Positions 60,401-63,400 of a DNA stretch of 64,000 nt are shown piece by piece. Every line of letters starts with the position of its first letter. Position 1 is the stretch's first letter. This DNA is from Trypanosoma brucei (lineage: Eukaryota): positions 4,768,001-4,832,000 of the forward strand of contig CH464491.1 in NCBI GenBank assembly GCA_000002445.1, given 5' to 3'. A program made the position numbers.

Positions 60401-63400
60401 ACATTGTCATAGTCTGCCCAGGCCGCGTCACTGCGTTCGCTAAATACAGCCAAAAGAAGTAAAGTTATAAGGACCTTCTGTGCGTTCAGAGTACTCATGA
60501 TTTCAGATACTTGTGGCTCTGTTTGGGACGTTTGTAGGGCTTCCTGCGTCGGGCTCATATCAGAGGACAAAAAGATGTTGTTTTTGAGGGTATCTGGTTG
60601 GTAAAGCGCACAATGGGTTCAGGGTTTGTGCATTGACGTGCAGGTGGTATAAAGTCTAATAAACGAAGCCATGGTATCTTCAGCGTGTTTTAACTGGTGC
60701 TCAGTGGTTTTAGGGGTACATATGCACTGCCTCTGCTCGTTTATGGTATCTATTCAGCGTTTAGATTGAATTAAATAGCTGTTTTGGGCTATTTAGCTCT
60801 TTCTGCGTAGCCGCTCGATGTTAACCTCCGCTAACTTTTTATTACTTCTTTCACTTTAATGTTTGCGCAACTCAGTTCGTTTACAGCGTCTTATCTACAA
60901 AAAAATCCCTCTTTAAGTGCATCATAACAAATTTTAAATATTCAAAATCCAATTTCGCTCCATCTATTGTAAAAGTTTTAACTTTCCCCAATCTCTTGTG
61001 CTAAAATTCCTTCTTTTAAACCCTTTATACCATGTAAAAATTTTTACAATATTCTTCGCCTTCTCTCCCCACGCAATTGGTTGTCTTGTAAAATGAATAA
61101 AGGGTGCCTCTTCAATTATCCCGCTAAGTGTAATCGAAAATAACCTCTCCTCATAGTCTAATCCAATCATACCTCTTCTCATAACAAATCCATACCCAAC
61201 AGTTTCTTCTTTATTTGCAGTACGATTTAGTAAAGGTCTGTAAATACTCTGTTCCCCGGTTTAGTTGTTTTGTAGAGTGCTCGTCGCAGATAGTGCAGGG
61301 ATAGATCCCCGGGGGCGACGAGTATTTAACTTACACTACGGATGGATCTGCCTCAACGTGGCGCCAGGGTCCAGTACCAGAAAAGAAATCAACTGGGAAG
61401 CCAAATGTTCCATCCAAACAGTGGCCGCAACACCGGATATGGTGTGACCGCTCCGTGGGGAGAGGACCATTAGTTAGTGTTCCACTGTCCAGCACCCTGC
61501 TCAGGTGGGGGAACCAAAAATCCCTGATACAACCTCCGTCCTGGGAGGCAGATGGATATGGTAAACATGGTTCCGACGCAACGTGGGGAGGGGATCGAAC
61601 GGGCGTCAAATGGAGACCGCCCCCTAGACACGCGCACATGCGGTTTCTCACTCGTGGGTATCAATTCTCCAAAAAAAAGAACAGGGGGTTTTATTGGGTA
61701 GAAACGCCGGTCTCCAGCGTTGAGTCCCACAGTGCTATGTCCTCGCGGTGTGGTGTGCGTAAATGCATTTGCTCCTTACCCTCGGGTTGACCGACTGCAT
61801 AGTCCTGACGGTTGCGCGAGGGAATGAAAATGACAGCATAATACACCAATATGGAATTTGCGGGCTATTGCTGTAAACTCCTCTTCACATTATGTATTTC
61901 CATGGCTTTATATGAATTTGATATCAGGAATTTTTGCTTTTTTTGTGCTGTTCATAGAAATCCATCAGCGGGTTTTACCTTTGAATTATGATCCATATAA
62001 ATATTATATTGTTACCTACAAATACTGGTCATTATTAATATATCTAGTGAGAATACATCAAAGTCACTTCACACTTACAGAACACCATACTCCTTTCCTC
62101 CTGATACTGTTTCTCTTTCTGTTCTTCTTCACAGTTGTACATTAGGGTCCGCAATCAGATTCAAAAAAAATCAACACAACCTCCGTTTTGGCATCTATCC
62201 ATTTTGTGTGAATTACTGGGAAGCATCAGTTCCTGCATCATTTTATTCTGTAATTTTATTATCGACCGCGTATTCTGCTGTTAAACGGTGTATTTTCTTT
62301 TATTTTTATCTACTGCTTATACCATGGCGAATTACGTGGTAATGCCACTATTATTATACACAGCACTTTAGTTCTTTTCTTTCTCCTGTATCATTTTCCT
62401 GAGTATGATTAAATCCACCGTCAGGTTTGTATTTAAAACCGCGCACATTCTATCTCCTTATCTCTGCCTCTTCCTCCCTCTTAGGTTCCTTCAACAATAT
62501 TCCTCAGTCTATTTTCCGTTCCATCTCATACTCACTTACTCCCATTGCACCATTTTAAATATAGTATCATTAGAATTGTTTTAAGTGAATATATTTTTTG
62601 ATTTCCACTCGATATGCGCCACCTATCTTATTATAATATTCATACATACACACTCAAAACATTCTCCTATCATTATCATTATCCTTTCTATTATAAACCT
62701 AACTAACATCCATACAGAAAAAGGCAAAACTAAAATAGTATAGGAGTACTTTTTCATTTTTTCACTCTGCAAATTGTTCCCATAGTTTACCATCATACAT
62801 GTTACTTAAGTTTTAAGATTTTACAAATTCTCAATATTTTCATTAATTTGCACCGTTTTATCAAAAAGTATTAAAAAATTTCAATCTTTAAAAAATTATG
62901 TCAAAATAAAAAATATTTCATAAATTATATAAGATTAAGAAAAATACTTATAATGCTATAATACTTAAAATGATACCAAACTCACAAAAGTAGCGCCCAT
63001 ACTCAGAGCAAATTTCTTATCGACGAGAAAACTGGAATCTTTGAAAGGTTCGCCTTCCTATTTGCAATCCGGAGATTTGCGGTCTGTTTGATCTTTCCCT
63101 TTGCATTTATCTGTTGTTGTTCCTGCAGCTCCTGCTTCTGTTCCTGCTGCGTTTGTTTGCTCTTTAACTTTACTTTCATCTGCTGTACACTTTTCATCTG
63201 TTTCACTTGTCCCTGCCCATTTGCAGCCTTCATCTATCCAGGTTTTGTTAGAACTGTGTTGGGCGCAAGCATTTTTTGCATTTTGTTCGTTTTCCTGAGC
63301 CTGGGCGGGCTTGGGGTTCGCTGTTGTGGATACTGCTGCTTGTGCCTGCGTGTACTGCTCTATGCTGGCGATAAAGGCTCCTGCTTTTTCAGTGTTTGCG

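What the first reader, a model, noticed from the sequence alone, without database searches (positions are those of the whole stretch)
61339..61850. Third, divergent copy of the ingi/RIME 5' signature heading a different short element
CCTCAACGTGGCGCCAGGGTCCAGTACC is retained, but the body is unrelated to the RIME at 47.8 kb and ends in a short A-run at ~61.68 kb. This ~35-45-nt 5' signature is shared by several trypanosomatid retroposon families, so this may be a DIRE/SIDER-type short element. It sits ~75 bp from the truncated 5' end of the paralogous gene fragment (60964-61265), which suggests the insertion truncated that gene.
Basis: partly seen in the sequence, partly recalled or inferred. 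Interest (0 to 1): 0.5.

Follow-up and report, generated by a model that had tools for sequence, protein, structure and literature searches.

The report
Fossil TbSIDER2 retroposon abutting ESAG3 fragment
The flagged stretch is part of an ordinary, full-length but dead copy of TbSIDER2, a known short retroposon of Trypanosoma brucei, sitting head-to-head against a truncated ESAG3 pseudogene in a silent VSG gene array.

Summary
The 28-nt ingi/RIME signature is at 61351-61378, and it occurs three times in the window against none expected by chance. The element that carries it was mis-delimited. It is a full-length TbSIDER2, a family of about 12 copies described by Bringaud et al. in 2007, and it spans about 61254-61833 (580 bp, + strand).

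- **Identity:** it aligns end to end at 81-87% with seven published TbSIDER2 copies. It lies 8.6% from their consensus; the published family range is 8-13.7%.
- **5' end:** TbSIDER2 carries a roughly 90-nt family-specific insert inside its 5' signature.
- **A-run:** the A-run at 61.67 kb is internal and conserved in the family. The true tail, at 61821-61833, is a decayed A-rich stretch.
- **Gene fragment:** the "paralogous gene fragment" is the C-terminal third of ESAG3, residues 244 to about 349. It ends exactly at the corrected 5' end of the element.
- **Not a simple insertion:** the missing ESAG3 N-terminal part is not on the other side of the element, and no target-site duplication is detectable.
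- **Shared breakpoint:** a published chromosome-8 TbSIDER2 copy is flanked by ESAG3 sequence broken at the same nucleotide. This points to one old junction that was later duplicated.

This is a known family and an extinct element, so interest is low.

The parts
61254..61833 (+). Full-length TbSIDER2 retroposon copy (about 580 bp)
   Evidence: blastn gives 81-87% identity to seven published TbSIDER2 copies, covering their positions 1 (or 5-6) to 564-573 of 571-589. Multiple alignment. Divergence from the consensus of the seven is 8.6%. GC is 54% against 34-36% in the flanks.
61254..61259 (+). 5' terminus CCCCGG. The family consensus is CCCTGG, which equals Pr77 nt 1-6 and forms the 5' strand of helix P1 of the HDV-like fold.
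   Evidence: Alignments. The T4-to-C change creates a C.A mismatch with position 113.
61260..61350 (+). Family-specific insert of about 90 nt inside the 5' signature. This is the 'large hairpin' of the published TbSIDER2(162)Rz construct.
   Evidence: Conserved in all 8 copies. It is not significantly similar to Pr77 (z=-0.4 for the window copy, -0.8 for the consensus). RNAalifold places a long hairpin here, and three of its pairs are broken in the window copy.
61351..61404 (+). Pr77 / '79-bp signature' core, homologous to RIME signature positions 19-68.
   Evidence: score 59 against null 16.4+-3.4, z=12.6.
61479..61517 (+). Decayed second Pr77-like segment, the second 'hallmark' that defines SIDER2-type elements
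   Evidence: The family consensus 219-269 aligns with Pr77 positions 24-73 (P=0.003). The window copy alone aligns collinearly but not significantly (P=0.16).
61671..61678 (+).
   Evidence: An A-rich run sits at the same alignment columns in all seven published copies, and homology continues for 150 nt beyond it.
61683..61776 (+). 3' block shared with the TSIDER1 family. It contains a conserved hairpin.
   Evidence: The window copy is 77.7% identical over 94 nt to T. vivax SIDER1 (E=2e-15). The TbSIDER2 consensus is 84% identical (E=1.6e-23). The hairpin is 92% paired in 13 sequences, but covariation is no better than in shuffles.
61821..61833 (+). Degenerate A-rich 3' tail (GGAATGAAAATGA). 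The end is uncertain by about 10 nt.
   Evidence: It aligns with the GGAAAATCAAA(TGA)AAAAAA tails of the published copies.
60938..61253 (-). ESAG3 pseudogene fragment, residues 244 to about 349 of 368. It is 5'-truncated exactly at the 5' end of the element (base 61254 is ambiguous between the two).
   Evidence: phmmer E=9.4e-27 to a 368-aa protein whose cluster members are named ESAG3. tblastn maps residues 243-345 to 61257-60949.
14663..15523 (-). Near-full-length ESAG3 pseudogene (residues 1-319, with in-frame stops and an internal deletion). This is the paralogue that shows what is missing at 61 kb.
   Evidence: tblastn E=8e-107. The nucleotide alignment to 60993-61254 ends at 14890/61254.
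47829..48329 (+). RIME copy carrying another instance of the signature (context)
12432..12678 (-). 5' half of a RIME/ingi carrying the third instance of the signature (context)

Best explanation
Window 61254-61833 is a full-length, inactive copy of TbSIDER2, a short non-coding retroposon of the ingi clade in the Trypanosoma brucei group. It lies in a silent subtelomeric VSG array.

**How the family worked (from the literature, not shown here).** Elements of this family were transcribed from their own 5' Pr77 hallmark. They were copied into the genome in trans by the endonuclease and reverse transcriptase of ingi4-type autonomous elements, through target-primed reverse transcription. That process leaves a poly(A) tail and a 12-bp target-site duplication.

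**State of this copy.** It is a fossil.
- Its tail has decayed.
- Helix P1 of the ribozyme-like fold has a mismatch.
- No target-site duplication is left.

**The junction.** Its 5' end is fused head-to-head to the C-terminal third of an ESAG3 pseudogene. The most likely history (inferred) has three steps:
1. An ancient TbSIDER2 insertion into, or joined to, an ESAG3 copy.
2. Loss of the ESAG3 N-terminal part, either by an insertion-associated deletion or by later recombination.
3. Spread of the ESAG3-fragment/TbSIDER2 module by subtelomeric segmental duplication.
For: **Identity**
- End-to-end blastn matches of 81-87% to seven TbSIDER2 sequences printed in the supplement of PMC4035085.
- Divergence of 8.6% from their consensus. 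The published family range is 8-13.7% and the published length range is 558-587 bp (PMC2323293).
- An extended 5' signature with a family-specific insert, and a Pr77 core with z=12.6.
- GC of 54% against 34-36% in the flanks.
- No Pfam domain in any long frame.

**Context**
- VSG_B, VSG C-terminal and ESAG1 domains in neighbouring ORFs.

**Junction**
- ESAG3 identity.
- Homology to the intact paralogue stops at 14890/61254, which is the first base of the element.
- The 22-nt upstream flank of the published Tb927 chromosome-8 copy is also ESAG3 sequence. It ends at the same ESAG3 nucleotide and is followed by 6 extra nt (P about 0.001 per copy, roughly 0.01 after testing seven copies).

**Inactivity**
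- 5 of 36 consensus pairs are broken, including one in P1.
- The TbSIDER2 ribozyme construct was inactive in vitro (PMC4035085).
Against: - No target-site duplication (best 7/12, P=0.60), and the ingi4 target motif matches only 5/10 (P=0.10). The insertion step itself therefore leaves no direct trace here.
- The window copy is not closer in sequence to the chromosome-8 copy (85.5%) than to other copies (up to 88.4%). This does not favour a recent shared duplication.
- The shared-junction argument rests on only 22 nt of published flank.
- I could not reach a T. brucei genome assembly, so I could not identify the locus or check whether this copy is one of the 12 catalogued ones.
Confidence: 0.93

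Rival explanations
1. One reading: a novel or DIRE/SIDER-like short element of about 340 bp that starts near 61339, ends at the A-run near 61.68 kb, and lies 75 bp from the gene fragment.
For: The signature is real. An A8 run exists at 61671-61678.
Against: Homology to TbSIDER2 starts 85 bp upstream of 61339 and continues about 150 bp past the A-run. The A-run is present at the same position in all family members.
Confidence: 0.02
2. An orphan copy of the 79-bp signature with an unrelated downstream sequence. Bringaud et al. 2007 found 29 such unique cases in T. brucei. On this view the stretch is a recombinational fragment, not a retroposon.
For: PMC2323293 reports that 29 of 51 non-ingi/RIME/DIRE signatures had unique downstream sequence.
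Against: The whole 570 bp downstream and upstream of the signature is homologous to seven TbSIDER2 copies.
Confidence: 0.01
3. A member of TSIDER1 (TbSIDER1), the other short degenerate family of African trypanosomes.
For: A 94-nt 3' block and the signature are shared with TSIDER1 sequences.
Against: Outside those blocks there is no detectable similarity to TbSIDER1 alpha or beta, TvSIDER1 or TcoSIDER1. Similarity to TbSIDER2 is end to end. The 5' signature carries the TbSIDER2-specific insert.
Confidence: 0.01
4. The ESAG3 truncation has nothing to do with retroposition. On this view, ectopic recombination between two TbSIDER2 copies (or a breakpoint that happened to fall at the element end) joined an ESAG3-flanked 5' side to an unrelated 3' side. 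Alternatively, two independent insertions hit the same preferred site in two ESAG3 paralogues.
For: There is no target-site duplication and no ESAG3 N-terminal part 3' of the element. ESAG3 loci coincide with recombination breakpoints in expression sites (PMC2567434). The window copy is not specially close to the chromosome-8 copy.
Against: A breakpoint that falls exactly at the first nucleotide of a full-length element is what a retroposition 5' junction produces. The same ESAG3 nucleotide is the breakpoint next to a second copy, which is easier to explain by one event plus duplication. Recombination between two element copies would still need one original insertion next to ESAG3.
Confidence: 0.25

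Closest known systems
TbSIDER2 (T. brucei short interspersed degenerate retroposon 2; Bringaud et al. 2007, PLoS Pathog 3:e136; sequences in Sanchez-Luque et al. 2014, BMC Genomics 15:340)
   Same: Length about 580 bp. CCCTGG start. Extended 161-bp-type signature with the same ~90-nt insert. The same body throughout (81-87% pairwise identity, 8.6% from consensus). Internal A-run. A-rich tail. High GC. Non-coding. Subtelomeric location.
   Different: Nothing of kind. This copy is not identical to any of the seven published sequences. Its tail is more decayed, and its 5' fold carries more broken pairs (5/36) than the other copies (1-3/36).
TSIDER1 (TbSIDER1 / TcoSIDER1 / TvSIDER1; Bringaud et al. 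2011, Mol Biochem Parasitol 179:30)
   Same: Similar size, a 5' Pr77-type signature and a poly(A) end. A collinear ~95-nt 3' block (78-84% to the TbSIDER2 consensus) and a ~29-nt Pr77-like middle block.
   Different: The rest of the body is unrelated. TSIDER1 has a 90-nt signature without the ~90-nt insert. It is preceded by the ingi6 target motif rather than the ingi4 one, according to the paper.
RIME / ingi (T. brucei)
   Same: Shares 54 nt of the 5' signature (Pr77 positions 19-68) and the first 6 nt.
   Different: There is no other similarity to the RIME in this window. RIME copies are young (about 4% divergence in the literature) and derive from ingi by internal deletion.
Leishmania SIDER2
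   Same: Short degenerate retroposon with two Pr77-like hallmarks, about 550 bp.
   Different: Only the signature aligns (85.7% over 28 nt). Leishmania SIDER2 elements sit in 3'UTRs and regulate mRNA stability, whereas this copy sits in a silent VSG array.

Membership tests
TbSIDER2 | Sequence homology to the TbSIDER2 core over the whole element, with divergence from consensus in the family range (8-13.7%) | tested here: met
   Seven published copies match at 81-87% from position 1 (or 5-6) to 564-573. Divergence from their consensus is 8.6%.
TbSIDER2 | Length 558-587 bp | tested here: met
   61254-61833 is 580 bp. The 3' end is uncertain by about 10 nt.
TbSIDER2 | Extended (about 161 bp) form of the 79-bp signature at the 5' end | tested here: met
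   CCCCGG, then a ~90-nt family-specific insert, then the Pr77 core at 61351-61404.
TbSIDER2 | Second Pr77-like hallmark (the criterion used by Sanchez-Luque et al. 2014 for SIDER2) | tested here: inconclusive
   Significant in the family consensus (positions 219-269, P=0.003). The homologous stretch of the window copy (61479-61517) aligns collinearly but is not significant on its own (P=0.16).
TbSIDER2 | Adenosine-rich 3' end | tested here: met
   GGAATGAAAATGA at 61821-61833 aligns with the family tails but is interrupted.
TbSIDER2 | No coding capacity | tested here: met
   No Pfam hit for the three longest frames. No protein homologues. Frames are broken differently among copies.
TbSIDER2 | 12-bp target-site duplication. 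It is present, in degenerate form, in only one family member according to PMC2323293, so it is a hallmark of origin rather than a requirement. | tested here: not met
   Best match 7/12. 60% of random positions do as well.
TbSIDER2 | ingi4-type target motif upstream (A.......T...GT.GG.T...^.T.T..T.....; PMC3820030) | tested here: inconclusive
   5 of 10 fixed positions match. 10% of window positions score at least as high.
TSIDER1 / TbSIDER1 | Homology to the TSIDER1 consensus over the body | tested here: not met
   Only the signature and one 86-94-nt 3' block align.
RIME | Body made of the 5' and 3' ends of ingi | tested here: not met
   Only the 28-nt signature matches the RIME in this window.
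DIRE | About 5 kb, with remnants of the ingi/L1Tc endonuclease and reverse-transcriptase ORF | tested here: not met
   The GC-rich homologous unit is 580 bp, bounded by AT-rich ESAG3 and VSG-flank sequence. No Pfam domain.
HDV-like ribozyme of the L1Tc/ingi clade (L1TcRz type) | Intact P1 and nested double-pseudoknot fold, with self-cleavage at +1 | tested here: inconclusive
   P1 is 6/7 paired, with a C.A mismatch at 4-113, and 5/36 consensus pairs are broken. There is no Rfam hit. Covariation is absent in 8 copies. Cleavage cannot be tested here. The family representative was inactive in vitro (PMC4035085).
tRNA-derived SINE | tRNA-like 5' part with A and B boxes and a cloverleaf | tested here: not met
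   ARAGORN finds nothing at default settings. At a relaxed threshold it hits 1 of 9 heads against 4% of shuffles. The Rfam tRNA model gives no hit at E<=10 in a 186-nt search.

The most novel reading that the evidence does not exclude
TbSIDER2 and the Salivarian TSIDER1 family may be related by more than the 5' signature. They share two collinear blocks. One is the second Pr77-like segment. The other is a ~95-nt 3' block containing a hairpin, which is 78-84% identical between the T. brucei SIDER2 consensus and T. vivax or T. congolense SIDER1. The rest of the bodies are unalignable. If that 3' block (61683-61776 in this copy) was kept because the ingi-type reverse transcriptase recognises it, then trans-mobilisation in this clade would depend on a 3' module as well as on the 5' hallmark, and the two families would be mosaics of one ancestor.
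Probability: 0.25. Interest if true: 0.35.

Novelty: already known. Interest (0 to 1): 0.12.

Why it matters
It matters little beyond correct annotation. The stretch should be labelled as one TbSIDER2 copy (61254-61833) plus an ESAG3 pseudogene fragment, not as a new short element.

The one point of wider use is that the same ESAG3 breakpoint flanks two TbSIDER2 copies. This suggests that part of the family's small copy number (about 12) arose by subtelomeric segmental duplication rather than by retroposition. Such junctions could therefore serve as markers for tracing the duplication history of VSG arrays.

Tried and rejected
- **Rfam.** Scans of 60-63 kb and of 61235-61420 at E<=10 gave no HDV-like ribozyme, tRNA or other credible family.
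- **tRNA-derived head.** By eye, the first 60 nt look like A and B boxes. ARAGORN finds nothing at default settings, and at relaxed thresholds it does no better than on shuffles. Rejected.
- **First 92 nt as a duplicated Pr77.** Not supported: z=-0.8. The second hallmark is instead at consensus positions 219-269.
- **More T. brucei copies through proteins.**
  - The search for homologous proteins with the ESAG3 paralogue translation and with the longest antisense ORF of the element returned nothing.
  - Exact look-ups of three window ORFs returned nothing.
  - Two ESAG3-related loci were fetched: L001 (a Logan contig) and L002 (T. b. gambiense FN554968.1). Neither contains a TbSIDER2.
  - The source locus of the window could therefore not be identified.
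- **Target-site duplication and ingi4 target motif.** Neither is significant.
- **ESAG3 N-terminal part.** A sensitive tblastn of ESAG3 against the whole window found no N-terminal part 3' of the element.
- **Covariation.** There is none above controls for the 5' fold or the 3' hairpin.
- **Pfam.** It does not recognise ESAG3, so the fragment looked like an orphan until the exhaustive phmmer search.

Full report
**Observation**

The 28-mer CCTCAACGTGGCGCCAGGGTCCAGTACC is at 61351-61378 on the + strand. With up to 3 mismatches it occurs three times in the window: at 61351 (+), 47847 (+) and 12633 (-). None of 100 shuffles gave any match.

Similarity to the 5' signature of the RIME copy at 47829 is longer than 28 nt. 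It runs from 61351 to 61404 and covers signature positions 19-68 (score 59 against 16.4+-3.4 for shuffles).

The rest of the flagged stretch has no other copy in the window and does not resemble that RIME.

**Identity**

The literature describes two short degenerate families in T. brucei that carry this signature: TbSIDER1 (10 copies) and TbSIDER2 (12 copies, 558-587 bp). In TbSIDER2 the "79-bp signature" is stretched to 161 bp (PMC2323293; PMC3820030).

The supplement of PMC4035085 prints seven full TbSIDER2 sequences with short flanks. The window matches all seven from their first bases to positions 564-573 of 571-589, over window 61254-61824, at 81-87% identity.

- In a multiple alignment, the window copy differs from the consensus of the seven by 8.6%. 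The seven themselves differ by 6-13.5%, and the published family range is 8-13.7%.
- GC is 54% inside the element against 34-36% in the 600 bp on either side, as reported for these retroposons.
- No long frame has a Pfam domain or a protein homologue.
- TbSIDER1 alpha and beta, T. vivax and T. congolense SIDER1, a Leishmania SIDER2 and the RIME share only the signature. For the SIDER1 sequences there is also one 3' block.

The element is therefore a TbSIDER2.

**Corrected anatomy**

| Window coordinates | Feature |
|---|---|
| 61254-61259 | 5' terminus CCCCGG (family consensus CCCTGG) |
| 61260-61350 | Family-specific insert |
| 61351-61404 | Pr77 core |
| 61479-61517 | Decayed second Pr77-like segment |
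| 61671-61678 | Internal A8 run |
| 61683-61776 | 3' block shared with SIDER1 elements |
| 61821-61833 | Interrupted A-rich tail GGAATGAAAATGA |

- The insert at 61260-61350 is conserved in every copy but is not similar to Pr77 (z about -0.4 to -0.8).
- The second Pr77-like segment is significant in the family consensus (P=0.003) but not in this copy alone (P=0.16).
- The A8 run has an A-rich counterpart at the same alignment columns in all published copies.
- The tail aligns with the family's tails.

**The neighbouring gene**

The translated fragment had no Pfam hit and no hit in the word-indexed protein search. An exhaustive phmmer search found a 368-aa protein at E=9.4e-27, with the query aligned to its residues 244-336. 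The members of that protein's cluster are named ESAG3 of T. brucei.

tblastn of that protein against the window gives two places:
- 15523-14663 (-): residues 1-319, with in-frame stops and an internal deletion. This is a near-complete pseudogene.
- 61257-60949 (-): residues 243-345.

At the nucleotide level the two copies align up to 14890/61254, the first base of the element.

Neighbouring ORFs carry VSG_B, VSG C-terminal and ESAG1 domains. The setting is a subtelomeric VSG array. That is where most TbSIDER copies lie, and ESAG3 pseudogenes also occur beside VSGs in telomeric expression sites.

**Was the gene cut by the insertion?**

A plain target-primed insertion would leave ESAG3 residues 1-243 beyond the poly(A) tail, with a 12-bp duplication. 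Neither is there.
- tblastn finds no further ESAG3 sequence near the element.
- The best match of the 12 nt upstream to anything within about 50 nt of the tail is 7/12. That score is reached at 60% of random positions.
- The ingi4 target motif reported upstream of TbSIDER2 matches 5 of 10 positions (P=0.10).

The 22-nt upstream flank printed for the Tb927 chromosome-8 copy (17,261) is also ESAG3 sequence. It matches 16/16 with a 3-nt gap to window 14872-14890. The match ends at the same ESAG3 nucleotide as in the window and is followed by 6 extra nt before the element. Only 0.13% of random 22-mers score as high, and none of the other six flanks does.

The simplest reading is one old ESAG3/TbSIDER2 junction that was later copied to at least two subtelomeric places, with the ESAG3 N-terminal part lost at or after the insertion. 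This is inference, and three things limit it:
- It rests on 22 nt of published flank.
- The two element copies are not especially similar to each other (85.5%).
- I could not fetch the chromosome-8 locus.

**How it works**

The mechanism comes from the cited literature, not from anything shown here.
- SIDER-type elements are non-coding passengers of ingi-clade autonomous elements.
- Their 5' hallmark acts as an internal promoter in L1Tc and folds as an HDV-like ribozyme in several relatives.
- Integration is by target-primed reverse transcription with 12-bp duplications.
- TbSIDER2 is assigned to the ingi4 machinery and is regarded as extinct.

For this copy the structural data agree with extinction. 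In the RNAalifold consensus of the first 167 nt, the window copy breaks 5 of 36 pairs, including a C.A mismatch in P1. Other copies break 1-3 pairs. There is no covariation in eight copies. The published TbSIDER2 ribozyme construct did not cleave in vitro. I expect no present function, beyond the element being a block of repeated sequence available for recombination.

**Things tried that led nowhere**

- Rfam finds nothing relevant.
- The tRNA-like look of the first 60 nt is not supported.
- Attempts to reach further T. brucei copies through protein look-ups failed or gave loci without the element.

**Side observation**

The TbSIDER2 consensus shares two collinear blocks with SIDER1 elements of T. 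vivax, T. congolense and T. brucei.
- Positions 425-518 are 84% identical to TvSIDER1 (E=1.6e-23).
- Positions 218-246 are 86% identical.

PMC3820030 states that TSIDER1 shares only the signature with other transposable elements.

The 3' block contains a hairpin that is 92% paired in 13 sequences, but its covariation is no better than in shuffles.

**Verdict**

This is a known family and a typical, dead member. Interest is low.

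Noticed in passing
window 61683-61776 (and the TbSIDER2 consensus 425-518 and 218-246): TbSIDER2 shares two collinear blocks with TSIDER1 elements of T. vivax, T. congolense and T. brucei: 84%, 78% and about 74% identity over ~95-120 nt, plus a 29-nt block at 86%. The TSIDER1 paper states that the family shares only the 5' signature with other elements. The 3' block holds a hairpin that is 92% paired in 13 sequences, without significant covariation.
   Followed up: partly
window 61260-61350: The ~90-nt insert that stretches the TbSIDER2 signature is not detectably related to Pr77 (z about -0.8). 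Despite A-box and B-box-like strings, neither ARAGORN nor the Rfam tRNA model recognises it as a tRNA. Its origin is unexplained.
   Followed up: partly
window 61242-61259 versus the published flank of Tb927_08:17,261: Two TbSIDER2 copies are flanked on the 5' side by ESAG3 sequence broken at the same nucleotide. The chromosome-8 copy has 6 extra nt (ATTGGC) at the junction.
   Followed up: partly
window 61331-61651 (-) and the homologous stretch of the published copies: One antisense reading frame stays open for 67-109 codons in 7 of 8 TbSIDER2 copies. There is no protein homologue and no Pfam domain. It is probably inherited chance, and no test for selection was run.
   Followed up: no
window 45472-46476 (+): An uninterrupted 334-aa ESAG1 ORF (PF03238, E=4e-113), about 82% identical at the DNA level to an ESAG1 gene in a T. 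b. gambiense subtelomere (L002).
   Followed up: no
window 14663-15523 (-): A near-complete ESAG3 pseudogene (residues 1-319) with several in-frame stops and an internal deletion of about 30 residues. Pfam has no model that recognises ESAG3, so such fragments look like orphans in domain scans.
   Followed up: yes
window 12432-12678 (-): Only the first ~247 nt of a RIME/ingi are present. They are followed, on the minus strand, by an AT-rich stretch that looks like a VSG 70-bp repeat.
   Followed up: no
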